Part shown: positions 13,312 through 43,423 of the stretch, one piece after another
Position numbering within the stretch: position 1 is the stretch's first letter
Layout: each line of letters begins with the position of its first letter
From: Escherichia coli
Lineage (GTDB): Bacteria; Pseudomonadota; Gammaproteobacteria; Enterobacterales; Enterobacteriaceae
Strand: one strand, 5' to 3'
Assembly (NCBI RefSeq): GCF_024502345.1
Contig: NZ_JALDNN010000001.1
Length of the DNA stretch: 64,000 nucleotides
Made by a program: the position numbers and the translations under genes
The notes under the pieces: model-generated
What the model saw: the letters and a program-made list of their open reading frames with translations, nothing else
Databases searched by the model: none
What the model was told of the DNA's origin: nothing

Positions 13312-14280
13312 ATGGTTGTACATTACGACAATGGCAGACAACATCTTATAAAAACCCGTGACCTGAGAGTCTGTGCTTTTTATGCCGGGTGGCTGGGTGT
13401 TAATAAAATAATTAACACCCGTGACATTCCTCACCAGGATGCAGAAAGTTGTCGACAGGCACTCAACAAACTGATTAATCAGTTCATACCGAATGCAGAA
13501 CAGCGGGCAAGACTTTTTTCTGATATGGAAACAGCCCGTGATGAAAACATCCTTCCGCTGGAAAGTTTTGACTGGCTAGAACAGGATGAACGGGCAACAT
13601 TCTGGTTATGGGCGTATATTTGCAAGGCCGGAGACTACGAACTTGGTATTGACAAACCAGCAAATGCAGAGTTCGGAAAGAACTGGTATCAGCGAATGAA
13701 TCTGAGTGTATCTCCGACAAGCCACCAGGAAAGAATTAATATTATCATCTCTTTTTTCGACAACATTATTATTCCGACCCCACCGGTAAATCATCTCAAG
13801 CGCCAGGTCATGGACAGGCTGAAAGACCAGTGGAAAAATATTTACAGCAAACCAGCTCCGCTGAAATGGTTACCTAATGAAGAAGACGCGGTACTGTGGG
13901 CATGGAACAGCCTCAAATCGCTTCAGGAAGAAAGAAATGCGCCCACTATCGGGCTCTCATTAAATATTTCAACGCCAGGAATGAGTACCTGGTTTACCCC
14001 CCTGAGTCATTCTGAACGCAATTTAGCCCTGCGCACGGCGATCGACTTATGGGACGATGCACCGGATACAAAGCGTTTATTCCTTCTGAACCTGAATAAA
14101 GCCTGGAACCAGCAAAAATTACGTCAGTCCCGTACCGATAAAAAAGCACTCAATACGTACCTGAAGAACGAAACAAAAACTCGACTGGACTTTATGGCAG
14201 AACGTAGCGGAGTTCGCATCAGTGATATGCTGGAAATGCTGATTAATGACCATTACCGAAAAACCTGTGGTGGTGAGTGA
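13312..14280 (+). CDS. hypothetical protein (322 aa), paralog of 40616..41503; follows a 1.4-kb G-poor non-coding region
   Basis: Shared FW.W block and similar length with the 40616 ORF; both divergent from a YagK-like gene. Confidence 0.55.
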   Translation: MVVHYDNGRQHLIKTRDLRVCAFYAGWLGVNKIINTRDIPHQDAESCRQALNKLINQFIPNAEQRARLFSDMETARDENILPLESFDWLEQDERATFWLWAYICKAGDYELGIDKPANAEFGKNWYQRMNLSVSPTSHQERINIIISFFDNIIIPTPPVNHLKRQVMDRLKDQWKNIYSKPAPLKWLPNEEDAVLWAWNSLKSLQEERNAPTIGLSLNISTPGMSTWFTPLSHSERNLALRTAIDLWDDAPDTKRLFLLNLNKAWNQQKLRQSRTDKKALNTYLKNETKTRLDFMAERSGVRISDMLEMLINDHYRKTCGGE

Positions 14281-16179: not shown

Positions 16180-16191
16180 GGAAATCTGAAC

Positions 16192-16503: not shown

Positions 16504-16549
16504 CACGGCTGCCCCCCAACAACATTTTTGACTGAGAAGGAAAAATACC

Positions 16550-17020
16550 ATGCGATTCATGCACGCCATCCTGTCAGCAGGATTACTGACCTTTGCCATC
16601 ACGGCACAGGCGGTCCCCAATATGTGGAGCAGTGGCTTCGGTATGGGCGTCACCGAGTACATCATCACCAGCCCGGAAAACGTGATGATGAACCTGAACT
16701 GCACCGGCAACCCTGACGACCAGAATATCCTGCAGCATCACGTCATGCTCACCCTGCCTGACGGCAGCGGTGCCGATTCACAGGATGAGAAAACCGCCAT
16801 CACCGTCGTCACGGATGACCAGACGTTCCCCCTGCCGTCCTCTCTGGGCTGGCGTAACGGCGACAACGCCTGGCTGTCGTTCATTGATGCCATCAGAAAA
16901 GCAACGTCGTTTGAGATTTACGTCAACGACAAACAGGTGGGGCACTTTACCCCTTCGGCTGGAAACGTTCACAAGGTTCTGGCTGATATGCCCGAATGCA
17001 CGACACTGACCGCCGGGTAA
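16550..17020 (+). CDS. secreted hypothetical protein
   Basis: N-terminal signal peptide (MRFMHAILSAGLLTFAITAQA). Confidence 0.55.
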   Translation: MRFMHAILSAGLLTFAITAQAVPNMWSSGFGMGVTEYIITSPENVMMNLNCTGNPDDQNILQHHVMLTLPDGSGADSQDEKTAITVVTDDQTFPLPSSLGWRNGDNAWLSFIDAIRKATSFEIYVNDKQVGHFTPSAGNVHKVLADMPECTTLTAG

Positions 17021-17068
17021 CCCGGCGCATCCCCGGTTTACAGCAAAATCAATCAAGGACAATACGAT

Positions 17069-17581
17069 ATGACCGACATTTCGACACTCAGCCAGCGACT
17101 GACGACGCCAACCCTGCATTTTGTTCTACTCACCGTCGCCACCTGCGGCATCTGGCCGTTACTGTGGCTGTACCGAAAACAGCAGATTATCAGCGACACC
17201 ACCGGATATCCGGTTTGCGGCAATCTGTTTATCATCTGGCTCGCCGTCTGTTTTGGGCTCGGACGACAGTTCGGCGTGATGGCCTCACCGGACCTGGCGG
17301 GCTACTACACGGGCAGCGATACACTGTTGGCCTTAAGCGGCATTCTGTCGCTCACCTGCGGCGTGATGTACATCGTCTGGGCCTTTAAGGCCAGAGCAGC
17401 ACTGCGACACTATGCGCTGAACACCTTCCGGTTTGACCTGAAGATGAATGCGTTTTATACCGTGGTGCTCAACGTCTTCTACATTACATACTGCATCAAC
17501 GATATGCCGCAGGCACTGGCGAAGCACCGCATTATTCATGGTCAGGCCCCTGTGCCGCCGGAGTCTCCGTCACCGCAGTAA
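17069..17581 (+). CDS. inner-membrane hypothetical protein
   Basis: Multiple TM helices. Confidence 0.55.
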   Translation: MTDISTLSQRLTTPTLHFVLLTVATCGIWPLLWLYRKQQIISDTTGYPVCGNLFIIWLAVCFGLGRQFGVMASPDLAGYYTGSDTLLALSGILSLTCGVMYIVWAFKARAALRHYALNTFRFDLKMNAFYTVVLNVFYITYCINDMPQALAKHRIIHGQAPVPPESPSPQ

Positions 17582-17663
17582 CGCAGCTCTCCTCTTATTA
17601 TCCGGCCGGGGCATTCCTGTGTGCCCCAGATTCATCCGGATCCCCCCTCTGAGATTTGACCCA

Positions 17664-17885
17664 ATGACATTACTGAAAATCGTGCTCAACACCCTGCGTC
17701 AGGTGCTGACGTGGTGCGCCAGCAGCCGGGCGCAGCAGTTTGTGGAAGACCACTTCCGCGAAGAAGGCTATGACGAAGACAGTATTTACATCGCCAGACA
17801 GGCGGCAACCCTGCTCGCAGGTGCCTTAATCACAGCGCTCATGGAACAGATACTGCAGCTTATTGCCACACACTTAACCCACTGA
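17664..17885 (+). CDS. hypothetical protein (73 aa)
   Basis: Start taken at the Met that does not overlap the upstream gene (track ORF 17448..17885 is a longer alternative). Confidence 0.4.
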
Positions 17886-17940
17886 TGCCCTGCTCACTGA
17901 GCGGGGCATTTTGTTTTATGCCATTCATCAGGAACTGAAT

Positions 17941-18174
17941 ATGCAAGTCACTGACGATACGTCGTTACCGCCAGGGCAATTCACCCGCCGACAGGCTGAA
18001 GCCGTGGTCACGCTTTACCACAACGTCACTATAGAAGATGACCAGGGTACGCACTTTCGGCTGGTTATTCGCGACAGCGAGGGGACGTTAATCTGGCGGG
18101 CCTGGAATTTTGAAGCCAGTGCCGGGGAATGGCTTAACCGCTATCTGCTCAGCCACGGGATCCCCAAACACTGA
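17941..18174 (+). CDS. DUF905-family protein (YkfF-like)
   Basis: …[38 protein letters not shown]… ; paralog of 44225..44458. Confidence 0.75.
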
Positions 18175-18206
18175 CACACCACAGCTTAACCCAATAGCGA
18201 CCACAC

Positions 18207-18247
18207 AAAAAAGCCATGCTCCCACAGGAGCATGGCTGTTTTGTTTA
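18207..18247 (+). terminator. putative rho-independent terminator
   Basis: Stem AAGCCATGCTCC / GGAGCATGGCT followed by GTTTTGTTT. Confidence 0.55.
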
Positions 18248-18277
18248 TGCCGTTAAATCAACAATAAGGAATTTACC

Positions 18278-18673
18278 ATGAGACTAGCCAGCCGCTTTGG
18301 ACGGACAAACCAGATCCGTCGCGATCGTCCGTTAACCCGCGAAGAACTGATGCAGGTCGTTCCCAGCGTATTCAGTGCAGATCGCCACGGTTCCAGGAGC
18401 GAAAAATACGCTTACATACCCACCATTACTCTGCTCGAAAATCTTCAACGCGAAGGCTTTGAACCCTTCTTCGCCTGCCAGTCACGCGTACGCGACCCTG
18501 ACCGCCGGGAGCACACCAAACATCTGCTGCGCCATCTTTGTAGACCGGAGAATGATGTTTGGATGAAAGCGAGTTTTGGTACCCTCATCATTGAGGGTAC
18601 CAACAGCAAAATACTCGGCGAATGCTATTGTCTAAGCACAGCGCCAAGCCTTAGCGGCACGAATAGTTGTTAA
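18278..18673 (+). pseudogene. DUF932-family (YafZ-like) gene, 3'-truncated after about 86 codons
   Basis: First 86 aa colinear with the intact paralog at 44557..45375; similarity ends near 18537, where unrelated sequence and the RM cassette begin. Confidence 0.75.
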
Positions 18674-18675
18674 CC

Positions 18676-21414
18676 TTACTCAGCTTTAGCAAACTGCTGG
18701 GTGAAGTAAGCCAATGAATTAGCTTCTTTTACGGCATCATGCGGAATGAGTAAGTATTTCCAAGGTTTGCCACCGTGCTGTGCAAGGTATTCACTGGCAT
18801 GACTACACCATTTCACACCACTGCGGGCTTTTTCGGTGACTTCCTCATTCCAACTGCCGTCTTGGTTTTGATGTTGAGTACTTTTAGTTTCAATCATCAA
18901 TACATAGTCGGCGGTTTCAGCAACGAAATCCGGCACGTATTCAGGATGCTCGCTACCGCGTTTGTAGTACATCTTGAATTGGCCTTTGGCAGGCTTAAAC
19001 CACTTCTCGCAGTCGCGTTCTAAAATCACCGCAAAACGGCGCTCAGTGTCTGAATCAAACTTTTGCAATGGGTATAGACAACGGCTAAAGCCGCCAAAGA
19101 GCATTTGTTTGATGCGACTGACATCGCGTACTGTATCACGGTAGCTTTGCACCGGCTGGTCTTGCGCTATGGTGTAAGCGCAGTCACGTAAGGTACTAAA
19201 GCCACTGCGTACATCGACGACGTACTCGGTTGCTTCTTCAAAGAAGTGGTTGTTCAGTTGCGCATGAATTAACTTCGCAATCGCATCACTCTGGTTTTGC
19301 AGAATGTTCTCAACCACATCGTCGTCGTTTTCAGCGGCCAGTGTATTGACAGCTTGAGTGGCTAGGTCAAACAAAAGTTCAGCTTGCTCGTCGTAAGGAA
19401 TATCGTCGTAATCGAACAGCTTCTTCAAAATATAGTTTTGTTTCACCGGCTCGTAGTTGCCCGAATCGCCTTCGCCACGAATGGTTTGGTGATTGTCTTG
19501 CAGGCTTTGTTGAATCAGAGTTCGGTCGATAGGTTTTAAACCTTTAATGGCAGCAATGTCCAAATCGAACGGGTGATAGCCGGTACGTACTTCACCTGAT
19601 GGTGAAACAATAATACGCGGAATATCTATGGTGTTATCCACCGTGAGCTGGGTGACTTGCTCAACAATCGCCGCAATATCCACCGATTCTTCAGTAAATA
19701 GCTCCCGTTGCTCTTGGGTTAACTGAGCTTTTACTTGTTCGGTGATCTGTGCTTTTACCTCAGTCGTTAACAATGCTTTGCTGGTCGGCGCATCGGTAGG
19801 GCGTGTTTGATATTGCTTGATCACGTCCAATGCAGCGCGGGCAACGGTTTGTTGGTTAGGCGTGGTATAAGTGGCTTTAGGTTCTTGTACCTCACGGTTA
19901 CCGTCTGCACCGGTTGCGGTTACACCTGAACCAGTCAGTTGCTGCTCTAGGTTCGATTTAACCTGCACACTTTGTTTGGTTACATCGTCTTCTGGGCGAT
20001 CTAATACGCGTGTTTTCAGGCGCAGTGGGTTATTCGGGTCGTTAGCCTCATCAACAATTTCTTGGAATTTGTCGTGCGCAACAATGCTCAGCGTATCGAC
20101 GGCTTCAACACCTGTACGTTTGCCATAAGGTAAACGCAAACCACGGCCAATTGACTGTTCAATTAGGGTTCTGGCGTTGGCTGCACGTAGTGGCACAATG
20201 GTGTACAGGTTAGTAACGTCCCAACCTTCTTTCAGCATGTTAACGTGAATGACGATCTCGGTTGGCTCATCGACATGCTCAACATTGAGCAGTGCTTGAA
20301 TAGTTTCTTCTTCTTTTTTACTGCTATCCACTTGAATGACTTTGCCACGGTAGCGGCCGTCAAACACTGTTTCAAGTTTGGTTAAAAGCTCTGCTGCATG
20401 CGTGGTATCACGGGCAATCACCAACATAAAAGGCTTAACTAACTTAGCATCGTTTTCATGTGCATAAGTGATTAAATCCACCTTGGTTTGCTCATGTAAA
20501 CGAATACCGTCCATTAACTTAATGGTTTCTAGTTCGTCTTTATCATATTGGCTGGCATCAAAGTTACGCTGAGTAACAACGGCAGGCTCTTTAACAAAAC
20601 CATCATCCATGGCACAGGCCAATGGGTAATCAATCACCACATTTTTAAAGTGCACAGGGCCACGACTTGATTCGGTAAATGGTGTGGCCGTTAGCTCTAA
20701 TGCGAATAGTGGATTAAGCTCATTGAGCGCACGCATACCGGCATCGGCACGATAGCGATGCGATTCGTCCATCAGCAGCACTAAGTCAGGTAAGTTCGAT
20801 AGATACTCAAAGTAGCTTTCGCCTAGGGTTTCCGCTAAACGCTTAATACGCGGGGCTTTGCCTCCACGTACTTCGGTGTTAATTTTCGCGATGTTAAACA
20901 CATTGATCCGAACCGAACCAAATAGATCGCCCATGACTTGTGCGCCGCGGCTCTCATAGTTATCACCGGTGATCACTTCTGGCGGTGCTAGCACAAAATC
21001 GGTAATGCCTTTAAACACGTACTTCGGTGAGGCGGGCGAGAAATCGCTGATCAGCTTTTCATAAATAGTCAGGTTAGGTGCCAACACAAAATAATTGCGA
21101 ATGCCATGTACCTGATACAAATAGGTAATAAACGCCCCCATCAAACGGGTTTTACCTACACCTGTTGCCAAGGCAAAACACAGTGAAGGAAAGTCACGTT
21201 CAAAATCGCTGAGCTTAGGAAACTGCGCTTTTAAGGTTTCTAATAGCTCCGGCACATCGCGTTTTGGGTTCAGTAGTTTGTGCTCAGAAGCACTAATCGC
21301 CACTGCCAACGCACGCAGCGAATCTTGCTGCGGCTGGCGTAAGCTTAAACGGCCAATAATATTATTAATGGCACGTAATTGGTCGGGTTTTAAGCTTGAT
21401 AAATCCATGGTCAT
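18676..21414 (-). CDS. Type III restriction enzyme Res subunit (SF2 helicase + PD-ExK endonuclease)
   Basis: Helicase motifs I ATGVGKT, II DESH, VI QSIGRGLR; C-terminal PD…ETK (YVPDFVAETADYVLMIETK); directly downstream of the Mod gene. Confidence 0.85.
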   Translation of the reverse strand: MTMDLSSLKPDQLRAINNIIGRLSLRQPQQDSLRALAVAISASEHKLLNPKRDVPELLETLKAQFPKLSDFERDFPSLCFALATGVGKTRLMGAFITYLYQVHGIRNYFVLAPNLTIYEKLISDFSPASPKYVFKGITDFVLAPPEVITGDNYESRGAQVMGDLFGSVRINVFNIAKINTEVRGGKAPRIKRLAETLGESYFEYLSNLPDLVLLMDESHRYRADAGMRALNELNPLFALELTATPFTESSRGPVHFKNVVIDYPLACAMDDGFVKEPAVVTQRNFDASQYDKDELETIKLMDGIRLHEQTKVDLITYAHENDAKLVKPFMLVIARDTTHAAELLTKLETVFDGRYRGKVIQVDSSKKEEETIQALLNVEHVDEPTEIVIHVNMLKEGWDVTNLYTIVPLRAANARTLIEQSIGRGLRLPYGKRTGVEAVDTLSIVAHDKFQEIVDEANDPNNPLRLKTRVLDRPEDDVTKQSVQVKSNLEQQLTGSGVTATGADGNREVQEPKATYTTPNQQTVARAALDVIKQYQTRPTDAPTSKALLTTEVKAQITEQVKAQLTQEQRELFTEESVDIAAIVEQVTQLTVDNTIDIPRIIVSPSGEVRTGYHPFDLDIAAIKGLKPIDRTLIQQSLQDNHQTIRGEGDSGNYEPVKQNYILKKLFDYDDIPYDEQAELLFDLATQAVNTLAAENDDDVVENILQNQSDAIAKLIHAQLNNHFFEEATEYVVDVRSGFSTLRDCAYTIAQDQPVQSYRDTVRDVSRIKQMLFGGFSRCLYPLQKFDSDTERRFAVILERDCEKWFKPAKGQFKMYYKRGSEHPEYVPDFVAETADYVLMIETKSTQHQNQDGSWNEEVTEKARSGVKWCSHASEYLAQHGGKPWKYLLIPHDAVKEANSLAYFTQQFAKAE

Positions 21415-21435
21415 TATAATTATCCTTATTAACCG

Positions 21436-23142
21436 TTAATCTTGCGCTGCATCGTCATCGGCAGACGCATCGTCAGTTAGGTTTGCCACGTTTAACGAAT
21501 AATCGTCCTGACCAAATTGGCACTTGTCTAAAATGGCTTTTGGCAGTTTTTTCAAGGTTAAATTGGTAAAACGACCTGGCTCGCAGCGAAATGCACCACA
21601 CATAACCAGTAAAGTTCGGTCACTGCCAACTTCTTCTGACAGCGCTTCTAATTTATCTACCGATAAGCTTTGTGTGGTGACATAAATATGATCCGTCTCG
21701 GTTGAATAACCGTGATCCCACCAATTCACTTCCGATGGCGCATAGGTAAAACCTTCCAGCTTACAAACGGCTTCGGCGAGCATTTCTGGGTTGTACTCTT
21801 TATTGATCACTTCCAAGCCAAACTTATCTTTCACAATTAAGGTCGGGGCAAGTTTGTAATAGCGGAAGCCACCGCCACCTTGCCAGTTTACAGACTTAGA
21901 AATACCACCTTGATCTTCGCCATCAATCACTTTTTGCAAGCGCGGGATAATATGGGTATGACAATGATCACCTAGCTCGACCGAGATCCAACGTCTTTTC
22001 ATCTTGTGAGCTACAGCAGCAGTAGTTCCCGAACCACCGAATGAATCAAAGACTAAATCGCCTTCTCGCGTACACATTTCGAAAATCCGCTTCAAAAGCG
22101 CTTCGGGTTTTTTTCCATTTTTGAAACTAACGCCGCCTTCATTTGCTATTCCATTCCAACTAATGTCAGTCCAAACATCAGTTATTAGTTCAGCAGGTTG
22201 CATCTCACCGTCAATTTCCAAAAGCCTATTGGAGTAAAAGACCATTTGCCTACCATTTGCGATATAAAAGCCTTCGACATCCTCATTTGGATGTACATAA
22301 ACCTTATCCCTATCTTTCTTTGACTTCTCGATAGTTTCTTTTCTCTTTATTTTAGCACCACCACCAATTGCAACGGATTGAAATACACGTTCTGCATTAT
22401 CAATTGCGAATTGTGCTAATTCATCATCAAATGTATCAGGCAGTTTTTTCTTGGCTTCTTTTGTATCTTTATAGCCATTGGCCTTTGCAAACGCATCGGC
22501 AATACCGCACCACGTCCAACTTTTATAATGGTCATCTGGGTTTAATAGATATTTGTTATATCCCGTATCATATCCTTTAGGTATATAGATTTTGTTAAGC
22601 GGTTTCTGGGTGCGATCTTTTGCGTATACAAGCAAAAAGTTTACTGTGGAGAAAACTGTGGCCCCTGTTGCCTTAAAGCCTGAAGGGTCATTTGTGGTCA
22701 TCGATATGGTATTTAACTGATTTGCACGACCAAAAATCTCGTCCATCAAAACTTTTAAATAAGCCATTTCGCAGTCATCTAAGTGAACGAATATTACTCC
22801 ATCATCACTTAGTAGATTACGAATTATTTCTAACCTATCCCTCATTAAGCCCAGCCAAATGGAATGCTCCAGACCATCATCATAGTGCTCAAAAGCACTT
22901 CCGGTATTGAATGGTGGGTCTATGTAAACACACTTCACTTTGCCTGCATATTCTTGCTCTAGCGCCTTCAATGCCAATAAGTTATCGCCAAAAATCAGTT
23001 TATTATCAAAAATATCGTTTTCGGTCACTTTTTGGCTGGCGTGATAAGACTTGCTCGGGTCTTCTAACAAAATGCGCGGCTCTAACTTTTTGCGCTCGTT
23101 TTTGCCTATCCAGGTCAGTTCTAATTTGGTTTTGCTCATCAT
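21436..23142 (-). CDS. Type III R-M Mod subunit (N6-adenine/N4-cytosine class DNA methyltransferase)
   Basis: Motif IV DPPFN and SAM motif FDSFGGSGTT; mod-res gene order with a 21-bp gap. Confidence 0.85.
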   Translation of the reverse strand: MMSKTKLELTWIGKNERKKLEPRILLEDPSKSYHASQKVTENDIFDNKLIFGDNLLALKALEQEYAGKVKCVYIDPPFNTGSAFEHYDDGLEHSIWLGLMRDRLEIIRNLLSDDGVIFVHLDDCEMAYLKVLMDEIFGRANQLNTISMTTNDPSGFKATGATVFSTVNFLLVYAKDRTQKPLNKIYIPKGYDTGYNKYLLNPDDHYKSWTWCGIADAFAKANGYKDTKEAKKKLPDTFDDELAQFAIDNAERVFQSVAIGGGAKIKRKETIEKSKKDRDKVYVHPNEDVEGFYIANGRQMVFYSNRLLEIDGEMQPAELITDVWTDISWNGIANEGGVSFKNGKKPEALLKRIFEMCTREGDLVFDSFGGSGTTAAVAHKMKRRWISVELGDHCHTHIIPRLQKVIDGEDQGGISKSVNWQGGGGFRYYKLAPTLIVKDKFGLEVINKEYNPEMLAEAVCKLEGFTYAPSEVNWWDHGYSTETDHIYVTTQSLSVDKLEALSEEVGSDRTLLVMCGAFRCEPGRFTNLTLKKLPKAILDKCQFGQDDYSLNVANLTDDASADDDAAQD

Positions 23143-23196
23143 TTCTGTGCTCTTATCTTGTGTTCGTTACTTAGCGTTATTATTCTACAGCAATCG

Positions 23197-25062
23197 CTAC
23201 GCAGGTTGTGCTTGGCGATTACTCGCTTGGGTGTTTTGCCCTTGTCGGCGTTGCGCTTGCTCGGCTAAGTAACTGAATAAATTCTGGTTGTGTGGGTCGT
23301 TCGCTTGAAGGCGTTCTTGTTTTGCTACAACTGCCGGGCTTTCTGCCAAGTTTAAATGGCTAATCCACACCGTTTGCATTAAACGTGCGGTATCGCCCAA
23401 GCGTTTGAAGTATGCGTGCGGCGCACTGCCTAATACTAATGCCGTAAAACTATCAAAAAATTGCTGACGAAGTTCATCAAAAGCGTGGCTGATTAATCTT
23501 TTAAATGCCGCTTGCTCGGTAATCTCAGGAGCCGTAATAGCGCCTTCAAACTGCGCCATTAATAGCGTGGTTATGCAGTAAGTAAAATGTCGATATACCA
23601 GTTTTTCTGGGCTTGGACTACTGCGCTCTGCGTTTGTACATAAGACTTGAATAGCCAGATAGCAGTTCACCGCGTTAATGGCGACGGCCCCCTGTAAATC
23701 TGTACTAAAAACGGCTTGGTACTCGGCACTTTCTTGGTTAGTGAATTTGCTTGGCTCTACTTTTAGCTGATAAGGCACGCGTACATCACCGTGCATACAG
23801 GCCAATGCTTTGGCCAAGGTGTCGATAGTAATGCTGCGAATACCCGCTGCTGCGCTTTGTTGTGGGCGGTAGAGATATTCAACACCAAACATTTTCATCT
23901 CTTGGCGCAAGCGTTCTTGGGTATCATCCAGCGCGGCAAAGTTGGCTAAATCGACCGGGTTTTGCAGGTTACGCGCTTTGGTTACTTGTTTGTGAAATGC
24001 ATCGTTACCCGTGTTGATAATGGTTACCATCACTTGAGCTTGGCTGATGTCTGCATTTGGGTTTTCACGCATAAACTGTGCAGCACTAGCAATGGTTTGT
24101 GCACCGTTAACGACGGACAGGCCATCGACTGCAACATGCTTGCTACCTGTGTGGCCTCTAATATTCCCTTTTGGTTTTACTGCATTGCCAACCAGAGTAA
24201 TGCCATTGTTAAGATAAATAAAATTTTCCGGCTCATGTAAAAGGGTGTCTTTAATCGCCCTATTTACCCCACGTCTGCCAGCACCAATAAAATAGCGAAT
24301 ATTTTTCTCGTAAAGTTTACGGTCATGAGTAGTGTGCAAGGCAATTAAATCGGTTAGCTTGGCGATACCAAATACGACTTTTCGTGGTTGTTCTTGCACT
24401 CGGAACTTATATACAGCGACACGCTCGTTTACCGTATCAACCGCATGTTCACTGCGAAGAGCCTGCTCAACATCGGTGGCGGTGTATTCTTGATATTCAG
24501 GTGCGATTTGCTCTTCACCTTCATCAATCAGCTCTTGGATCGCTGGTTGTAGGTAGTTTTGTGCTTGTATGGTAATGCCATTACCTGTGTATGCGACAAG
24601 CAGTTGAATTCTTTCGCACTCGTCTAATGCGGCTTCAATATTTGCTTGAAGGTTTTGAACATTTTGATTAAAGCGGTGAAATTGCTTGTTTAAAAGTAAC
24701 TTTACACCCTCAATAAAAGCCTGTGCTTCGCCCAATTGGAATTGCGCATCTTCCTTCATTTTTGACTGTACTAAGTACAGAGTCTGATCAGCTTCGTGAT
24801 AATAAATTGCATCAATACCATGGTCTTCATAGTCGTCCACCACAGCTTTTGCTGCGGTCACTACGTCTAAATCGAATTTTTGCTGTAGTACGAATGCGCT
24901 AAAAGCCCTGGAAATTTGCTTTTTAGGTTTATCTTCTCGCCCACCTTGCCCAAGCAATGGCGGTAAATGCGGCACAAAACGCTGCTGTAGCAGTTCTTTT
25001 AATAGGGTAAGAAATTGTGGTTGTAATGCTGCCAAGTGAGTTGTCCTTATTTTTATTGCCAA
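23197..25062 (-). CDS. large abortive-infection-like protein, tentatively AIPR family (621 aa)
   Basis: Size and context (between an Abi_2 gene and an RM system) and a remembered VVNGAQT-like block; family assignment from memory only. Start overlaps the upstream stop by 10 nt. Confidence 0.4.
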
Positions 25063-25994
25063 ATTGGCCGCGCTTGCCAGTCGGCTGGAAAGCCCATGCG
25101 GTCAATGTCTATTTGGTGATGATTTATCAATTGGATGAGTCGTTGCTTCCAGTGATGTTCACCACTGATCACATCCATGAGGTAGCCCAACATCACCAAG
25201 GTGTTATAAATTTTTCGTAAACGCCGGTCGCTATCGGGCAGGTTTTGCAAGCTTTGAATCAGTGCCGGTTCACCATGGCGTGGCAGTACCGTGGTTTTAA
25301 TAAAATCACGGTTCCATAGCCTAGAATGATGGGCACTTAAATTGCGCACTAGCGACAAATGCTCACAGAATGAGGTAAGAGTTTTTTCATCTAGGCCGTA
25401 GCTTTTGCTTATTACCTGGCGGTCGGCACGCAGCTTGATATTGCTGTACCAACAGGAAAGTTGCCCCATGGTTAACAGCTCAACACAGGCCCAAATAGGG
25501 GGTAGTGGCTCTTGATATTTTTGCGTAAGGTGCTTGATGAACTCTTCACGACTGCACTTTACCTCACCCGTGAGTTTGCCAAGGCTACTGGCGTATTCTA
25601 ATAAATCACCAAAGAGCTCTGGTTTTAAATGAGGGTGCGCGGTTTGGTATTTTTGGCTCAACTGATACGCAATTTGTGTGCGTAATGACACCTCAAAACG
25701 CTCGATGGCATCTAGCACTAACAAACGTAGTTCACGGTCGAAAACATATAGGCTTAGGACTTGGTCAAACTGAGTACCTGTGATAAACGTATGACTGGCA
25801 TGATCTTGCTCATAGGGCAAACAATAAGCCGCAAAACGATAGTAGTTCAGCTGTGCTAAGTAAAACTCAGCTTTCGGGACATCACTGATCACTAGGCCAC
25901 GTTGTTGCAACAAGCGTACTTGATCGCTAAAGCTTGTAGGGGGCTTGGTAAAAGCGACTTTAGGGACTGGTTTGCGGCTCATTTGACCTCCCAT
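25053..25994 (-). CDS. Abi_2-family (AbiD/AbiF-like) abortive infection protein
   Basis: 313 aa with N-terminal …[17 protein letters not shown]… signature, which I recall as typical of Abi_2 proteins. Confidence 0.55.
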
Positions 25995-26139
25995 GCAACA
26001 GAAGATCGAATTTTGCGGGCCCCAGAAACGAGTAACCCCTCACAGGGCGCTGATCTGACGGGTAGCGGGAGGGGTGTTGTTGCAGTGATCATAGCCCCAA
26101 ACTGAAAAAAGTCAATGCTGGCGTTGAAATTGATTGTCA

Positions 26140-29034
26140 TCATTGAACCGTCCACCCAATGGTAAATAGGGTCTCTTGGCTGGTTTTTTTATTCAGTTTG
26201 CCTTCTAAGCTTTCAATCAGCTGTTCGCGCTTTTCGTCCACTTCATCTTGTTTATCAAACAGTTCACGGCGGCTTTTATTGCGCTGACTTTCTAACTGGC
26301 GCTGCTGTTTTTGCAGGGCAAGTTTCTCTTCCAGGGTTGGAGCTATTTTGGCTTCGCGGCGTACTTGCTTGATTTGCTTATCAAGCTCTTTTATAGATTG
26401 TTCAAGCCCTTCTTTTAAATCGTCTGCCCAAGAATCTAACTTGTTTACCTCTTGCTCGAAGAAGCTGAGATTACGATCGTTAACTTGCTTTTCGATGCCT
26501 AGTCTCGACTGCTGTAACGCATGCTGCAGCGCATATTGATAGCCAGGATATAAGGCGGCAAGTTCTTGCTCACTTACTTCACTTTGCACACAGGCACTAA
26601 GCTGCATCAGCTTTTGCACGACTTCACTTGGTAGCGGATGACCATGTTCATCTTGCGCGGCGAACAATAAATGGTCTTCGCTACGCTCCAATGATTCGAC
26701 ACTAAATTTTTGTAGGCTTAGTACACCTGACAAACCCACTAAGGGTTCTAGCATACTGATTTTTGTTTGGTGGTTGCTGTAATCAAAAATTACGCTGGCA
26801 ATGGGTAATTCACGTTGAAGCGCGTTGCTGATCACCCATTCACCCAGCGGGTGGGTGATACGATACACATGGGCATTGGCTAGTTTACCGGTTTCAATAC
26901 TGCCGCTTTGCTGTCCTCGGCGTACAAGTTGGTAGCTACCTGTAGGAGCCTGATTGATACTTTGATTAAGCGTAAAACTATGGTTGCTTGGGTCAATGTC
27001 TGCGATAGCTGCAAGTTCATGCGTACTGAGTTGCCAGAACCAACGGCCTACTTTATCGAGGCGTTGCTGCGCGGCATCTAGCTGAATTTTGAGTAAGTCG
27101 TGAATATCTTCATCGAAATTTTCCAGCAGCAGTTGCTGGGTCTCGCGCATTTTTTGGTTGATGTCGGCTTCTAGCTCTTTTTGCAATTGATCAAAAGCTG
27201 CTTCTATTTCCGCCGGTTGCCGACAAGTCTCGTATATATTTTGGATGCGTTTTTCAAAATCAATACCAGATTCAATGCTGCCTAGCACATCGTCCGATGC
27301 ACCAAACACGCCATCGAACAGATGGAATTTTTCAGTCAGTAACTCTAAAACACGCTGATCGGCTTTGTTGGCTTCGTTGAGGAAGTTGATCACCACAACA
27401 TCAAATTGCTGCCCATAGCGGTGACAACGGCCAATACGTTGCTCTACTCGTTGTGGGTTCCATGGTAAGTCATAGTTAATAAGTAACGAACAGAACTGTA
27501 AGTTAACCCCTTCTGCAGCCGCTTCGGTTGCGATCATAACTTCGGCATGATGGCGGAAGTAATCAATTAGGGCAGTACGGCGGTCAATTTGCGGTGAACC
27601 ACTCACCTTATCACTACCTTGGTTTTCAGCTAACCACTGCTGATAAACTTTGGTTGCTTCTGGATGGTTATTGCTGCCACTAAAGGTGACTAATTTATCA
27701 GCAAAGCCATTCGCCTCGAGGAAACGAGCTAGGTATTCTTGCGTGCGCTTCGATTCGGTAAAAATAATGACTTTACGTGGCGCCCCCATTTCCTCCATTT
27801 TGGCAAACCCTTGATTAAGCGCCGTTAGCAAGGCTTGGGTTTTACTGTCGGTGGTAATGGATTTAGCCTGCTCGATATAATGCTCAAGCTCGGCTATTTC
27901 AGCATTGAGTAACTCAAAGTCAATATCACTCTCAGGGGTATTGCTTTGTGTTTCTTCTACATACTCGCTGTACTCTTCTCCTAAATCATCACTCTCAACA
28001 AGCTCACTGATAATATCGAGGTCCGATTTAGCCTGTACTTTCAAGTCAACCAATCGGCGCTTTATAGTTTCGAGTGTGTTGAGCACTGCGTGCGAACTAG
28101 ATGCTAATAGCTTTCTCAGTATAAGGCCGGTTAAATGACGTTGGCTCTTGGGTAGTGCATAGCTCTCGTCCTTTTCCAATAAGGCACTAATACTTTCGTA
28201 AAGTGCCATCTCAGCATTAGAGGGTGTAAACGGTACGGTGAGTGTTTGACGTTGGGTATAGCGGACGTATTCGAGTACATCTTTGCGCAAGGTACGCTGA
28301 ATAAACCCGGTAAGTCGTTTCTTTAAATGCCCTAGCGCACTTTCGTTATTGACAAAGTGTTGTTTGAAGCTTCGCTCATCGCCGAAGATTTGATCGTCGA
28401 TAATGGTTGAAAGTCCATACAATTCCATGAGCGAGTTTTGTAAGGGTGTTGCAGTAAGTAATAGCTTTTTACTGCCATCTAATGCGCGGCGTAGCGTTTG
28501 ACCCATTTTATTGCTGCTACGATGTGCATTACGTAGCTTGTGCGCTTCGTCGATGACGACAATATCCCATGGCTCTAGCATTAGCTGCGTTTCCATTCTC
28601 GCAGCATAGTGATAGGACATAATAGAAACGCAGTGATTAGCTAGCGGGTTAGTTTGACCATTGTTAACACTAATGCGCCACGTTTTTGCATCAAGCACTT
28701 GCGTTGGTAAATTAAACTTATCGCCCAATTCCTGCGCCCACTGGCGTCGCAATGACGCCGGGCAGATGATCAATATGCGGCGTTTACGCTCTGCCCAATA
28801 CTGTGACAGTACTAAGCCTGCTTCAATAGTTTTCCCTAAGCCCACTTCATCAGCGAGTACAACACCTTTGCTTAACGGGTTGTTGAGCGCAAAAAGTGCC
28901 GCATGAATTTGGTGCGGATTGAGATCAACACTGGCATCAAAAAGAGATTGAGACAATTTATCAACGCCATTTTCAGCGTGGCGAATGGTTAATTCCTGCG
29001 CAAAGTATTTTGCTTGATAATCAGTTATTACCAT
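26140..29034 (-). CDS. SNF2-family helicase (about 965 aa) with C-terminal coiled-coil-rich region
   Basis: Motifs I LADEVGLGKT, II VIDEAHKLRN, III LLLTATPLQN, VI QRIGRCHRYGQ. Start set at MVITDYQ (29034) so that overlap with the upstream HTH gene is 14 nt rather than 95. Confidence 0.85.
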   Translation of the reverse strand: MVITDYQAKYFAQELTIRHAENGVDKLSQSLFDASVDLNPHQIHAALFALNNPLSKGVVLADEVGLGKTIEAGLVLSQYWAERKRRILIICPASLRRQWAQELGDKFNLPTQVLDAKTWRISVNNGQTNPLANHCVSIMSYHYAARMETQLMLEPWDIVVIDEAHKLRNAHRSSNKMGQTLRRALDGSKKLLLTATPLQNSLMELYGLSTIIDDQIFGDERSFKQHFVNNESALGHLKKRLTGFIQRTLRKDVLEYVRYTQRQTLTVPFTPSNAEMALYESISALLEKDESYALPKSQRHLTGLILRKLLASSSHAVLNTLETIKRRLVDLKVQAKSDLDIISELVESDDLGEEYSEYVEETQSNTPESDIDFELLNAEIAELEHYIEQAKSITTDSKTQALLTALNQGFAKMEEMGAPRKVIIFTESKRTQEYLARFLEANGFADKLVTFSGSNNHPEATKVYQQWLAENQGSDKVSGSPQIDRRTALIDYFRHHAEVMIATEAAAEGVNLQFCSLLINYDLPWNPQRVEQRIGRCHRYGQQFDVVVINFLNEANKADQRVLELLTEKFHLFDGVFGASDDVLGSIESGIDFEKRIQNIYETCRQPAEIEAAFDQLQKELEADINQKMRETQQLLLENFDEDIHDLLKIQLDAAQQRLDKVGRWFWQLSTHELAAIADIDPSNHSFTLNQSINQAPTGSYQLVRRGQQSGSIETGKLANAHVYRITHPLGEWVISNALQRELPIASVIFDYSNHQTKISMLEPLVGLSGVLSLQKFSVESLERSEDHLLFAAQDEHGHPLPSEVVQKLMQLSACVQSEVSEQELAALYPGYQYALQHALQQSRLGIEKQVNDRNLSFFEQEVNKLDSWADDLKEGLEQSIKELDKQIKQVRREAKIAPTLEEKLALQKQQRQLESQRNKSRRELFDKQDEVDEKREQLIESLEGKLNKKTSQETLFTIGWTVQ

Positions 29035-29227
29035 CCAACACCCCTTTTCCTTGAGCTGCTTGCGTACTGATCCATTCTTCAAGATCGGATTGTTTAAAGC
29101 GCCAAGCATTGCCAACTTTAAAAGCAGGAATTTTATGTACCGCTGCTAGACGGTAAACAGTTCTCTCATTTACCTTCAAATACTCAGCTACTTCTTTAAT
29201 TGTCAGAACGGTATCAGTCATTTTCAC
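29021..29227 (-). CDS. small helix-turn-helix DNA-binding protein (excisionase/MerR-like HTH)
   Basis: LTIKEVAEYLKVNERTVYRLAAVHKIPAFKVGNAWRFKQSDLEEWI is a typical HTH_17-type pattern; overlaps the SNF2 start. Confidence 0.7.
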   Translation of the reverse strand: MKMTDTVLTIKEVAEYLKVNERTVYRLAAVHKIPAFKVGNAWRFKQSDLEEWISTQAAQGKGVLDGNN

Positions 29228-40615: not shown

Positions 40616-41503
40616 TTGTTAACTTCCTTGCATATTCGATTTCCATGTGATAGTGAAAATCACCAGAAGAGAATGCGATTGAGGCGTAATCAGATGAAAC
40701 AATATGAAGATGGTTATAACGTGAATGGATATAGCTGGGAAAATGAAACAATTGAGTATTTGTTGAATGATAAACAACTGACAGATAATCACATACCTGA
40801 ATGGGTTAAAAAAAATGAAATTGCAGCATTCTGGTTCTGGTTAGTTATAATTAACACAGATCCCAAACTCCTTGGGGTTCGTAATGAATTAGGGTTCAAT
40901 ACAGCCATGATGGGGCTGATTCCTGCGGGGAGTATACCCATAACAACAATTCCTTCAGATCATGAAATGAGACTGGATGTTATAAGCAAATGGATTAATG
41001 CATTAATCCTTGACAATCAATCAGATTGGTTCATCTCAACAATGCATCAAAACTGGCTGCAGATCGAAAAGAGAAACGAAGCCAAATGGCTTAAAAAGAA
41101 TACAGAACAACTCGAATGGGCATGGAAATATATCAATGCACGCATCCCGCACACGTATCTTTCCTGGTTTTATCCTGTAAGTGATAACGAAAGATACATT
41201 GCTATCGTAGTTTTACTAAAAATTTTATTCCCCGCAGATACACCATACTTACAGCAGCCAAAAGTACTTCACTATGGGGTTGCCGCAAAAGAAAAATTTT
41301 TCGACAAGATGCACAATGCATTCCGAAAACAGTTTACCGACGGAAAAAAAGATAAGCGGGTACAAATCAACGTTAAAATATCATCAGATGCAAAACGTAC
41401 TCTGGACAGACTGACCAGAGAACTGAAAACAACACAACAGGCTGTCCTGGAACATCTGATTCAGAACCACAGGCTGGTGATTCAGAACCACAGACTGGAT
41501 TAA
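40616..41503 (+). CDS. hypothetical protein (295 aa), paralog of 13312..14280; follows a 1.6-kb repeat-rich non-coding region
   Basis: Shared FW.W block; C-terminal basic segment (…KRVQINVKISSDAKRTLDRLTREL…) may be DNA-binding. Confidence 0.55.
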   Translation: MLTSLHIRFPCDSENHQKRMRLRRNQMKQYEDGYNVNGYSWENETIEYLLNDKQLTDNHIPEWVKKNEIAAFWFWLVIINTDPKLLGVRNELGFNTAMMGLIPAGSIPITTIPSDHEMRLDVISKWINALILDNQSDWFISTMHQNWLQIEKRNEAKWLKKNTEQLEWAWKYINARIPHTYLSWFYPVSDNERYIAIVVLLKILFPADTPYLQQPKVLHYGVAAKEKFFDKMHNAFRKQFTDGKKDKRVQINVKISSDAKRTLDRLTRELKTTQQAVLEHLIQNHRLVIQNHRLD

Positions 41504-42447
41504 CTTTCACCACTTCTGCTCCTGGCGATTTTCTTCTTTTGGTAGTGTCTCCTGGCTGCGGATATCAGATACTTTTCCGTCATTTTGTTGCAGAACTCTT
41601 CAATGTAGTTAATCATTTTCTGGTGTGCTTTCAGCTTTTCTTCCCCGGGGGACGCTTTCAGATAAATGTCCTCCTTTTCCACAAGCGCATTGACAAACTC
41701 CCCTAAACATCCCTGGTTATAAAGCGACGTGAAAAACAACACATCCCCCAGTCTCTCCAGTAACTGTGGTTTATCCCCGAAATGTTTTTTTATACTTTCA
41801 AAAGGTTTTCTATTTTCCGGATCAAAAAAAACACTTAATCCCAGTCGCTTATATTCCTGGTAAAAAAGTTCAAACGTCGGGGATGCTGAACGGCAAATAA
41901 ACGAAGACTGCGCCCATGGATTAAAATCTGTGACACGCCTCCCCTCCCGCACTTCCTGTCGTGTCAGCGGTGGTTCAGCAAACCAGGCGTCCAGCTCAGC
42001 CGAATCGTTATCCCTGCTCAAAACCTCATACAAACTGCCCGTGAACGGTTGAGCCGTTTGTTTTGTTGCTTCGCCTTCTGATTGTCTGAATCCATCCACT
42101 TTTCTCCGGATATTACGCGGAATCAGCATAAAAGGCGGGACATTAAGTGATAAACGTTTACCCGTCATGCGATACCATTGACCTACCTCAACCTTAATCC
42201 GTGTATCTGACCTTAGCTCAAGTGCCATTATGCTAAGCAGGTACAGATAACGCACCGTATAACGATTAAAATGTTTCTCCGGATCAAACGATTCGGACCG
42301 TTCTCCTCTGTACACGACTCTGCTGCGCTTCAGTATTCGCAGAGTATATTTCCAGGCCGGACTTTTACAAATGGCGGTAACTCTGGCCTTATTAACAATG
42401 TCGCGTAATGCATCAATCTGTTGTGCAGTCATCTCTTCCCTCCACAC
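41500..42447 (-). CDS. hypothetical protein (315 aa)
   Basis: Complete ORF convergent with the upstream gene; no confident family. Confidence 0.45.
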   Translation of the reverse strand: MWREEMTAQQIDALRDIVNKARVTAICKSPAWKYTLRILKRSRVVYRGERSESFDPEKHFNRYTVRYLYLLSIMALELRSDTRIKVEVGQWYRMTGKRLSLNVPPFMLIPRNIRRKVDGFRQSEGEATKQTAQPFTGSLYEVLSRDNDSAELDAWFAEPPLTRQEVREGRRVTDFNPWAQSSFICRSASPTFELFYQEYKRLGLSVFFDPENRKPFESIKKHFGDKPQLLERLGDVLFFTSLYNQGCLGEFVNALVEKEDIYLKASPGEEKLKAHQKMINYIEEFCNKMTEKYLISAARRHYQKKKIARSRSGES

Positions 42448-42538
42448 TTTGCCACTCCAGATTTTTTCACGCCCATATTACCTGAATGATAAACCGGATT
42501 AGTGTGATCCGGTTCAGTGAAATCAACAGGATACCGGT

Positions 42539-43423
42539 ATGTCATTCAGCCATTCTTCCCTCTCCGCACAAGTGAAATCATATCTGACGTTTCTTCCTGA
42601 AGAAATTCGCCAGAAAATCCTTGAACATCTCCACGGTGTTATTCATTACGAGCCCGTAATTGGCATTATGGGTAAATCCGGCACCGGCAAAAGCAGTCTG
42701 TGTAATGCCATTTTTCAGTCCCGTATCTGCGCCACGCATCCCCTGAACGGCTGCACCCGCCAGGCTCATCGTCTTACCCTGCAGCTCGGTGAACGCAGAA
42801 TGACGCTGGTCGATATGCCCGGCATTGGTGAGACACCGCAGCATGATCAGGAATACCGGGAGCTTTACCGTCAGTTACTGCCGGAACTGGATCTGATTAT
42901 CTGGATCCTGCGGGCTGATGAACGTGCGTATGCTGCTGATATTGCCATGCATCAGTTTTTACTGAATGAAGGTGCAGATCCCTCGCGTTTTCTGTTTGTT
43001 CTCAGCCATGCCGATCGCGTGTTTCCTGCTGAAGAATGGAACGACACAGAAAAATGCCCGTCCCGTCAGCAGGCGCTCTCACTGGCGACGGTGACAGCCC
43101 GGGTGGCAACCCTGTTCCCTTCATCATTTCCGGTACTCTCCGTTGCCGCACCTGTCGGCTGGAACCTTCCGGCGTTTGTGTCGCTGATGATCCACGCACT
43201 GCCACCACAGGCAACCAGTGCGGTTTATTCACATATCCGGGGGGAAAACCGCTCTGAACAGGCCCGGAAACACGCACAACAGACTTTTGGTGAAACCATC
43301 GGGAAAAGTTTTGACGACGCCGTTGCCCGTTTCAGTTTTCCGGCCTGGATGTTACAGCTTCTGCGCAAAACCCGGGACCGCATTATCCACCTGCTGGTCA
43401 CGCTGTGGGATCACCTGTTCTGA
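42539..43423 (+). CDS. YeeP/YfjP/YkfA-family GTPase
   Basis: G1 motif GIMGKSGTGKSSL, G3 DMPGIGE. Confidence 0.8.
   Translation: MSFSHSSLSAQVKSYLTFLPEEIRQKILEHLHGVIHYEPVIGIMGKSGTGKSSLCNAIFQSRICATHPLNGCTRQAHRLTLQLGERRMTLVDMPGIGETPQHDQEYRELYRQLLPELDLIIWILRADERAYAADIAMHQFLLNEGADPSRFLFVLSHADRVFPAEEWNDTEKCPSRQQALSLATVTARVATLFPSSFPVLSVAAPVGWNLPAFVSLMIHALPPQATSAVYSHIRGENRSEQARKHAQQTFGETIGKSFDDAVARFSFPAWMLQLLRKTRDRIIHLLVTLWDHLF

What the first reader, a model, noticed from the sequence alone, without database searches (positions are those of the whole stretch)
41500..42447. Unassigned 315-aa gene convergent with its neighbour
A complete ORF with no family I can recognise lies between the 295-aa paralog and the GTPase; its stop overlaps the stop of the upstream plus-strand gene (41500..41503).
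Basis: seen in the sequence. Interest (0 to 1): 0.25.

Follow-up and report, generated by a model that had tools for sequence, protein, structure and literature searches.

The report
Uncharacterised island backbone gene beside GTPase
The ORF is a real, conserved 310-residue gene for a basic, mostly helical protein with no known sequence or fold relatives; it always sits beside the YfjP-type GTPase in a family of enterobacterial genomic islands, and its function, most likely nucleic-acid binding and regulation, is untested.

Summary
The likely start is ATG 42432, giving 310 aa rather than 315. The convergent neighbour is 269 aa rather than 295. The two genes share a 4-nt TTAA stop overlap.

Synteny is the strongest evidence. 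In ten lineages at 310-aa-type loci the order is: RHH-tailed protein, then X, then a roughly 100-bp conserved region, then a YfjP-family GTPase and the DUF932/ArdB/RadC/CbtA module. In three more lineages a remote homologue carrying an N-terminal Cys-rich extension is adjacent to the GTPase. Two of these loci were tested for the RHH gene and lack it.

X is basic (pI 9.6) and mosaic, and it evolves faster than the GTPase.

Best reading, at modest confidence: X is a nucleic-acid-binding backbone factor that works with a DNA-binding module (a separate RHH protein or a fused zinc finger) to control or assist the adjacent GTPase operon.

In passing I found a covarying leader that sequesters the GTPase ribosome-binding site. 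Interest is moderate to low: this is an undescribed protein family in a common island type, with no demonstrated mechanism.

The parts
41500..42432 (-). Gene X: 310-aa basic, mostly alpha-helical protein (WP_021538213.1). It is the founding member of an undescribed Enterobacterales-only family. The maximal ORF extends to GTG 42447.
   Evidence: ORF. SD and ATG. PGAP annotation. Homologues. AF2 pLDDT 86.9. pI 9.59. No family or fold match.
40694..41503 (+). Convergent partner gene: 269-aa protein (WP_000816117.1) with a Trp-rich N-terminal domain and a C-terminal ribbon-helix-helix (RepB-RCR_reg/CopG-like) motif.
   Evidence: The alignment shows QIxVKIS..AK..LDK..TTQ..IE.LI. Of 11 homologues, 7 hit PF10723 and 5 hit PF01402, all sub-threshold, best E about 8e-4. 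It is co-conserved with X in all nine 310-aa-type loci tested by tblastn beyond the window and its near-identical copy L001, plus a called gene of matching size in ST131-like E. coli, and absent where X carries a Zn-finger-like extension.
41500..41503 (.). TTAA, the overlapping stop codons of the two convergent genes.
   Evidence: Sequence. The same 4-nt overlap occurs in two other E. coli clades (6942-6945 and 6954-6957). Four of the five non-Escherichia genera show gaps of about 15-140 bp; the called genes in Hafnia overlap by 26 nt.
42433..42538 (.). 106-bp divergent intergenic region between X and the GTPase gene. It contains an almost invariant box (42456-42483; AGGTAATATGGnnGTGAnAnnnTCTGGA on the minus strand) and a structured leader on the GTPase-sense strand. 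The inner hairpin is at about 42491-42513. The outer pairing of 42482-42497 with 42534-42549 covers the SD and AUG.
   Evidence: Cross-genus alignments. The motif is unique in the window, with 0 expected by chance. Folds. Covariation: 5 of 7 inner-stem pairs show compensatory changes and 82.6% of cells are paired, against 35-51% when the partners are slid. Inverted repeat I4.
42539..43423 (+). YfjP-family (MMR_HSR1, dynamin-like) GTPase. It is the first gene of the conserved DUF905/DUF932/antirestriction/RadC/DUF987/CbeA-CbtA module and the constant neighbour of X.
   Evidence: Pfam. Annotation. Synteny.

Best explanation
Shown: 41500..42432(-) is a genuine protein-coding gene. It belongs to the backbone, not the variable cargo, of a family of enterobacterial integrated islands related to E. 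coli CP4-57. These islands carry AlpA, a YagK/YfjJ Gp2-type HUH protein, cargo, and then the GTPase-DUF932-ArdB-RadC-CbeA/CbtA module. The product (X) is a 36-kDa basic protein with a confidently predicted, mostly helical fold that matches nothing known. Inferred mechanism: X is a nucleic-acid-binding regulatory or accessory factor for the adjacent GTPase-led operon. It would act through its conserved basic surfaces: the AWxxTQxxLKRSG helix, the beta-strand plus IRRKxDxFxQ helix, the GSLY motif and the KRRxxKK tail. It would act together with a dedicated DNA-binding module. That module is either the separately encoded, convergent RHH-tailed protein (as in this window) or a Cys-rich, zinc-finger-like N-terminal extension fused to X in sister islands. 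The likely target is the conserved intergenic region, meaning the promoter or the SD/AUG-sequestering leader of the GTPase mRNA. The convergent overlap with the RHH gene would then couple expression of the two partners.
For: Real gene. Backbone position: X is adjacent to the GTPase in 13 lineages. These are E. coli with 310-, 314-, 318-, 376- and 407-aa types, Citrobacter, Lelliottia, two Serratia, two Salmonella, Hafnia and Trabulsiella. In Trabulsiella the orientation is flipped. X is essentially absent from plasmids (2 of 72,556) and phages (0 of 50,697). Link to a DNA-binding module: the RHH-tailed partner accompanies every 310-aa-type X examined. It was confirmed by tblastn in nine loci beyond the window and its near-identical copy L001, by a called gene of matching size in ST131-like E. 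coli, and is RHH by alignment and Pfam. It is missing exactly where X has the N-terminal C-x4-C...LC-x2-HY extension. Those proteins are remote homologues of X (hhalign probability 95.5% and 98.1%). Nucleic-acid-binding character: pI 9.59 (family median 9.38, range 8.84-9.85), with net positive charge concentrated in residues 1-120 and the C-terminal tail. The most conserved segments are basic. Regulatory setting: the roughly 100-bp region between X and the GTPase carries a box that is invariant across genera in which the proteins are only about 25% identical, plus a covarying leader.
Confidence: 0.35

Rival explanations
1. X is a protein partner of the YfjP-family GTPase itself, for example an effector, an anchor or a GAP/GEF-like modulator. 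The pair would form a two-component machine, and X would not regulate expression.
For: Strict adjacency of X-superfamily genes to the GTPase in 13 lineages, including one where the orientation is inverted to co-directional. The GTPase has weak similarity to dynamin-like LeoA/LeoBC models, which act in multi-protein systems.
Against: The usual arrangement is divergent transcription, not a shared operon. X evolves 3-4 times faster in dN/dS than the GTPase and recombines independently of it. K-12 yfjP lacks X. No interaction test was possible.
Confidence: 0.2
2. X, alone or with the RHH-tailed protein, is a conflict gene: an anti-phage defence, anti-defence or inter-element exclusion factor carried by the island.
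For: It lies in the segment between the Gp2-type gene and the GTPase, where K-12 CP4-57 carries abpAB and rnlAB. The island carries defence cargo: type III R-M, AbiU/AIPR, AbiD and a DrmD-like helicase. This element family has been described as a vehicle for defence systems (PMC12458937). X shows mosaic structure and elevated dN/dS of 0.53-0.73, against 0.15-0.21 for the GTPase.
Against: No PADLOC match. Unlike cargo, its position next to the GTPase is fixed across genera and across different cargos. It is not found in phages or in other defence-island contexts. No catalytic motif is conserved; the invariant residues are W27, K111, L134, Y135, E193 and F234.
Confidence: 0.2
3. X and the RHH-tailed protein form a toxin-antitoxin-like addiction pair that stabilises the island.
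For: RHH domains are typical of antitoxins. The pair is tightly linked, and its 3' ends co-diverge.
Against: The genes are convergent, not co-transcribed. The RHH motif sits at the C-terminus of a 269-aa protein rather than at the N-terminus of a small antitoxin. Sister islands have X with a fused finger and no RHH gene. The island already carries CbeA/CbtA.
Confidence: 0.07
4. The ORF is a non-functional or decaying reading frame in a cryptic island.
For: dN/dS is relatively high. Many partial copies exist in draft assemblies. Expression is untested.
Against: Full-length conservation down to 23% identity in six genera. dN/dS is below 1 in every segment. The family covariation is strong enough to raise the AF2 pLDDT from 50 to 87. 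A good SD is present.
Confidence: 0.03

Closest known systems
E. coli 376-aa and 407-aa hypothetical proteins WP_000147745.1 and WP_001107219.1 (and a 417-aa Trabulsiella protein), encoded next to the same GTPase leader
   Same: They share the core with X, including the AW..TQ..L.R, I(I/L)P..(I/L)R(R/Q), (G/S)LY and LL..E..RL motifs (hhalign probability 98.1% and 95.5%). They occupy the same slot beside the YfjP-family GTPase, with the same downstream leader at 95% identity or more.
   Different: They carry a 90-100-aa N-terminal Cys-rich extension (C-x4-C...LC-x2-HY). No RHH-tailed neighbour was found at the two E. coli loci tested. They are also uncharacterised, with no Pfam domain.
RHH transcriptional repressors of mobile-element replication and maintenance genes (CopG; RepB-RCR_reg PF10723; IncFII RepA2/CopB)
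   Same: The convergent partner of X ends in a canonical ribbon-helix-helix with weak but recurrent matches to these families. The island encodes an HUH Gp2-type protein that such repressors typically accompany.
   Different: This resemblance concerns the neighbour, not X. The partner has an additional 210-aa Trp-rich domain of unknown function. All matches fall below the curated cut-offs. X itself has no RHH match.
CP4-57 / CP4-6 / CP4-44-type cryptic elements of E. coli K-12 and the 'uncharacterised integrated MGEs' carrying defence islands (PMC12458937)
   Same: The backbone gene set is the same: AlpA, YagK/YfjJ (HUH), YfjP-type GTPase, DUF932, antirestriction/ArdB, RadC, DUF987, CbeA/CbtA, DUF5983 and DUF4942.
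   Different: K-12 CP4-57 has abpAB, yfjM and rnlAB in front of yfjP and has no X homologue. YfjH is unrelated (hhalign probability 0.1%). The cited description of these elements does not mention X or its partner.
Mosaic immunity/regulatory regions of temperate phages and satellites (cI/Cro-type divergent regulators)
   Same: A divergently transcribed, fast-evolving, recombining gene sits beside a conserved operon and a conserved control region. This is an analogy of layout only.
   Different: No HTH or other repressor fold is present. The conserved cis elements do not vary with X type. No operator repeats were identified.

Membership tests
Any curated protein family (Pfam-A, NCBIfam, PHROGs) | Score above the family's gathering cut-off, or at least a recurrent sub-threshold hit across homologues | tested here: not met
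   There were 0 Pfam and 0 NCBIfam hits at E<=1 for X, and only chance-level PHROG hits (E 0.15-0.21). Across 55 family members, no Pfam family was hit by more than 6 members, and all of those at E>=0.009.
Known anti-phage defence system components (PADLOC-DB 2.0) | Match to a defence-protein HMM | tested here: not met
   0 hits at E<=1 for X and for its partner.
Ribbon-helix-helix DNA-binding proteins (as a possible identity of X residues about 99-140) | Beta-strand, helix A and helix B forming an intertwined dimer; match to RHH profiles | tested here: inconclusive
   X has a conserved strand (101-105) followed by a basic helix (106-118) and then the GSLY helix (134-139). No RHH profile matches, and in the monomer model the strand pairs with strand 81-85. 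Dimer modelling was not available.
X superfamily (this work): GTPase-adjacent island proteins | Core motifs AWxxxQ, (I/L)xPxx(I/L)RRK, GSLY, LLxLExxRL and LGxALFF, plus adjacency to a YfjP-family GTPase gene | tested here: met
   Motifs. Adjacency.
CP4-57-like integrated element backbone | Co-occurrence of AlpA, a YagK/YfjJ HUH protein, a YfjP-type GTPase, DUF932, antirestriction, RadC and CbeA/CbtA | tested here: met
   In the window: YagK_YfjJ_C E 4e-36 and MMR_HSR1 E 5e-15. The identical region in strain SCU-125 is annotated with the full set. The related loci show the same set. The integrase/tRNA end is not in the window, which has no tRNA gene.
Type II toxin-antitoxin pair | Two small co-transcribed genes; the antitoxin has an N-terminal DNA-binding domain; the toxin belongs to a known fold | tested here: not met
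   The genes are convergent. The RHH motif is C-terminal in a 269-aa protein. X has no toxin fold. Toxicity itself is not testable here.

The most novel reading that the evidence does not exclude
X defines a new fold of nucleic-acid-binding switch protein. Together with its RHH partner, or with a fused zinc finger, it would sense island excision or transfer, or phage attack. It would then open the conserved SD/AUG-sequestering leader, or the overlapping promoter, of the GTPase, anti-restriction and CbtA operon present in about a third of E. coli genomes. That would make it the missing regulator of this very common but unexplained module.
Probability: 0.12. Interest if true: 0.6.

Novelty: new variant of a known kind. 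Interest (0 to 1): 0.33.

Why it matters
The GTPase, DUF932, ArdB, RadC and CbtA module and its carrier islands are among the most common accessory DNA in E. coli. The same GTPase leader occurs in 1869 of 5426 complete genomes. These islands ferry defence systems, yet how they are regulated, replicated or transferred is unknown. X and its relatives occupy the one fixed position between cargo and module and have no known relatives. Assigning them a role would therefore open the regulation of this element family to experiment. On present evidence, however, X is one more uncharacterised mobile-element protein family. The practical value is a defined family with motifs, a confident model, an obligatory partner and a candidate cis target that can be tested directly.

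Tried and rejected
- **Sequence families.** Pfam, NCBIfam, PHROGs, PADLOC and PDB sequences gave nothing, for the single protein or for the 55-member profile.
- **First AF2 run.** With E. coli-only sequences the model was unusable (pLDDT 50). It was replaced by a deeper alignment.
- **K-12 YfjH.** It is 318 aa and in a similar island, but it is not related to X.
- **Rfam.** No known RNA lies in 38900-42700. The only hit in the window is a group II intron at 1910-1996.
- **Promoter scans.** Consensus sigma-70 scans of the X/GTPase intergenic region gave no consistent promoter in either direction. The promoter assignments therefore remain open.
- **Shared operator repeats.** A search for repeats shared between the partner's upstream region and the X/GTPase region found only short matches of the kind chance gives.
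- **Genome-wide motif scan.** A genome-contig scan with the leader box (AAATCTCACNNNNATATTAC) was poorly chosen. Of 68 hits, 65 lie outside Enterobacterales and look like chance. Only the Trabulsiella locus was informative.
- **Superfamily profile search.** A search for informative domain fusions found only more Zn-finger-tagged relatives without Pfam domains.
- **Literature.** Searches by accession and by gene names found no study of X, its partner or the 376/407-aa relatives.
- **Catalytic role.** A tyrosine-recombinase- or relaxase-like role, suggested by invariant Y135 and several Arg residues, was considered and dropped. There is no fold support and no HUH or metal-binding motif.

Full report
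**1. The observation**

The minus strand carries an open frame from 42447 (GTG) to the stop at 41500-41502. Fifteen bases into that frame there is an ATG at 42432, preceded by GGAGG with a 6-nt spacer. RefSeq annotates this 310-aa product as a hypothetical protein (WP_021538213.1) in genomes whose DNA is identical. Two of the three N-terminal variants in the family start MTAQQ. I therefore take 41500..42432 as the gene.

The plus-strand neighbour ends ...GAT TAA at 41501-41503, so the two reading frames share the tetranucleotide TTAA at 41500-41503. That neighbour is annotated as 269 aa from ATG 40694, not 295 aa. It has a distant paralogue at 13312..14280. The next gene, 42539..43423, is an MMR_HSR1-type GTPase annotated 'YfjP family GTPase'. 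The description is therefore correct apart from the two lengths.

**2. Is it a gene?**

Yes, on several independent lines of evidence.

- A search of 5.8 billion proteins found 69 clusters at 59-93% identity, nearly all full length, all from Escherichia or other Enterobacteriaceae and all unnamed.
- A profile search of 1.84 billion representatives added about 17 full-length clusters at 23-28% identity. These come from Citrobacter, Hafnia, Serratia, Lelliottia, Enterobacter and Salmonella.
- Pairwise Nei-Gojobori estimates within E. coli give dN/dS of 0.53-0.73 overall and 0.24-0.54 in the conserved core (codons 61-135). The value is always below 1, against 0.15-0.21 for the adjacent GTPase.
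- The E. coli alignment is visibly mosaic: N-terminal, middle and C-terminal blocks are reassorted.
- An AlphaFold model built with E. coli sequences only was poor (pLDDT 50). With 55 diverse family members it reached pLDDT 86.9 and pTM 0.85, which means the family carries a coherent co-evolution signal.
- The exact protein is recorded on 804 contigs.
- 224 of 5426 complete E. coli genomes hold at least 80% of 41400-42600 at megablast stringency.

**3. What it resembles**

It resembles nothing known.

- There are no hits in Pfam, NCBIfam, PADLOC or PDB sequences, and only chance-level PHROG hits. Scanning all 55 members or a family profile changes nothing.
- The model is mostly helical, with a small two-stranded sheet (strands 81-85 and 101-105).
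- Foldseek against PDB and against viral models gives no E below 0.9.
- The AlphaFold database library was unavailable.

The protein is basic (pI 9.59; family median 9.38, range 8.84-9.85). Its positive charge is concentrated in the first 120 residues and in the C-terminal KRRxxKK-like tail. Family-wide invariant residues are W27, K111, L134, Y135, E193 and F234. The best-conserved stretches are S-K-A-W-L-N-T-Q-x-M-L-K-R-S-G, I-V-P-x-x-I-R-R-K-A-D-x-F-x-Q, G-S-L-Y, P-x-F-x-L-L-x-L-E-C-x-R-L and L-G-x-A-L-F-F.

**4. Context**

The window is E. coli chromosome carrying an island of the CP4-57 type. It has a YagK/YfjJ 'inovirus Gp2' HUH protein at 38217..38948. After the GTPase come DUF905, DUF932, antirestriction, RadC/JAB, DUF987, CbeA/CbtA, DUF5983, DUF957 and DUF4942. 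A recent preprint describes these elements as uncharacterised integrated MGEs that deliver defence cargo and carry this 'moron' module. It does not mention X (PMC12458937).

The decisive observation is synteny. The same local order holds in the window and its identical copy in strain SCU-125, in two further E. coli clades (314-aa and 318-aa alleles), and in Citrobacter, Lelliottia, two Serratia, two Salmonella and Hafnia. That order is: RHH-tailed gene, then X convergent with it, then about 45-135 bp as called (about 100 bp in most), then the GTPase transcribed divergently. It holds although X is only 23-28% identical between genera and the cargo differs.

X is nearly absent from plasmids (2 of 72,556) and absent from phage records (0 of 50,697). 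The 4-nt stop overlap is found only in the E. coli clades. Four of the five non-Escherichia genera have gaps of about 15-140 bp, and the called genes in Hafnia overlap by 26 nt. The overlap itself is therefore not a conserved functional feature.

**5. A wider superfamily and a complementary partner**

The GTPase 5' region and most of the intergenic sequence occur at 95% identity or more in 1869 of 5426 E. coli genomes. In many of these the homology stops about 30 nt before X.

There the same slot holds unnamed proteins of 407 aa (WP_001107219.1) or 376 aa (WP_000147745.1). Profile-profile comparison shows both are remote homologues of X over about 200 residues, including the AW..TQ, IILP..R and (G/S)LY motifs (probability 95.5% and 98.1%). 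Both carry an extra N-terminal 90-100 residues with a C-x4-C...L-C-x2-H-Y pattern that looks like a zinc finger, although Pfam does not recognise it. A Trabulsiella genome has a 417-aa relative with two such Cys clusters. It lies upstream of the GTPase and is co-directional with it.

The 269-aa neighbour of X has a Trp-rich N-terminal domain and a textbook ribbon-helix-helix at its C-terminus. Of 11 homologues, 7 hit RepB-RCR_reg and 5 hit RHH_1 below threshold. tblastn finds this gene in nine 310-aa-type loci beyond the window and its near-identical copy L001, but not in the two loci with zinc-finger-tagged X.

The X core therefore comes either with a separately encoded DNA-binding protein or with a fused putative DNA-binding finger. 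This complementary pattern is the main reason I favour a nucleic-acid-directed role for X. It rests on few lineages and is an inference. The 3' third of X and the RHH gene diverge together between E. coli clades. That is expected from linkage and is also compatible with co-adaptation.

**6. The control region**

Across nine lineages the intergenic region keeps an almost invariant box. In the window it is at 42456-42483 and occurs once, with 0 matches expected by chance.

On the GTPase-sense strand the sequence from CCATATTAC to the start codon folds into a two-tier hairpin in every lineage.

- The inner stem covaries: CCGGAT/ATCCGG, CCTGGC/GCCAGG, CCGGGAA/TTCCCGG and TCGGA/TCCGA. Five of its 7 pairs show compensatory changes.
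- For the whole structure, 82.6% of cells are paired, against 35-51% when the 3' partners are slid. No shuffle of 500 reached the observed covariation score.
- A G.U pair present in 7 of 9 sequences would be C.A on the other strand, which points to an RNA on the GTPase strand.
- The outer helix covers the Shine-Dalgarno sequence. In E. coli a 16-nt inverted repeat (42482-42497 with 42534-42549) also covers the AUG.
- Rfam has no matching family.

This looks like a translation-repressing leader of the GTPase gene. It belongs to the GTPase rather than to X, because it persists with all X types and when X is flipped. It is nevertheless the obvious candidate target for a neighbouring regulator. 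I could not place promoters with confidence.

**7. Interpretation**

Firmly shown: X is a real, conserved, backbone-associated gene that founds an undescribed Enterobacterales-restricted superfamily with no known fold relatives.

Inferred, at about 0.35: X is a nucleic-acid-binding regulatory or accessory factor that acts with an RHH or zinc-finger module on the GTPase-led operon.

Serious rivals:
- X is a physical partner of the GTPase (0.2).
- X is a conflict (defence or anti-defence) protein, which its fast and mosaic evolution and the defence-laden island would suit (0.2).
- X and the RHH protein form a toxin-antitoxin-like pair (0.07).
- The ORF is decaying (0.03).

Points against my preferred reading:
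- X has no recognisable binding domain.
- The conserved cis elements do not vary with X type.
- The K-12 islands keep yfjP without X.

**8. Novelty and score**

The gene is already catalogued as a hypothetical protein in thousands of assemblies. However, the family, its remote relatives, its obligatory neighbours and the leader have not been described in the literature I could search. I class it as a new variant of a known kind: a mobile-element backbone or regulatory module built on an unknown fold. I do not class it as categorically new, because no new mechanism is demonstrated. Interest is about 0.33.

Noticed in passing
window 42463-42549 (+ strand): A conserved structured leader lies upstream of the YfjP-family GTPase gene. 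It has an invariant CCATATTAC box, a covarying inner hairpin (5 of 7 pairs compensatory across 9 lineages) and an outer helix that sequesters the SD and, in E. coli, the AUG. It has no Rfam family. The same leader is present in 1869 of 5426 complete E. coli genomes.
   Followed up: partly
window 38949-40693: About 1.7 kb of AT-rich sequence (32-41% GC, strongly A-skewed around 39000-39500) with no ORF above 90 aa lies between the Gp2-type gene and the RHH gene. It is conserved at 75-92% nucleotide identity in islands with different X types. It contains iteron-like repeats (ACGTGTAT / ACACTTAGTA / ATGTGTAT) at about 39800-40020. It could be an origin or a regulatory region for the HUH protein.
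   Followed up: partly
window 41457-41498: A perfect-register 21-nt tandem duplication (95% identity) at the 3' end of the RHH-tailed gene duplicates seven C-terminal residues (LIQNHRL / VIQNHRL) just before the overlapping stop.
   Followed up: no
window 7767-18673: A second, partial island backbone. It includes YagK/YfjJ-like ORFs (8449-9015 and 10596-11201), a 322-aa paralogue of the RHH-tailed gene (13312-14280; PF10723 E 9e-4), an ORF at 15188-15916 in the position where related loci carry a WYL-domain gene (not scanned here), and a truncated DUF932-like ORF (18278-18673). It has no X homologue and no GTPase.
   Followed up: partly
window 18676-29115 (- strand): A defence cargo cluster: type III restriction Res (912 aa) and Mod (568 aa), an AbiU/AIPR protein (621 aa), AbiD/Abi_2 (313 aa) and a DrmD-like SNF2 helicase (991 aa).
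   Followed up: partly
window 1910-3523 (- strand): A group II intron: an Rfam RF00029 domain at 1910-1996 (64.9 bits), with an adjacent 507-aa ORF (2000-3523) that is presumably its reverse transcriptase (not scanned).
   Followed up: no
window 35646-37889: ORF fragments that look like IS/transposase remnants from their translations (35646-36996; not scanned), followed by a 292-aa Mrr_cat restriction-endonuclease-like gene (37011-37889; Pfam E 1.3e-5) just upstream of the Gp2-type gene.
   Followed up: no
L018 3752-4975, L019 3762-4892, L074 2189-3442: Remote X homologues of 376-417 aa carry N-terminal C-x4-C...LC-x2-HY motifs that look like zinc fingers. These are very common unnamed E. coli proteins (at least 1000 contigs each) and are not recognised by Pfam. 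In Trabulsiella the gene is co-directional with the GTPase.
   Followed up: partly
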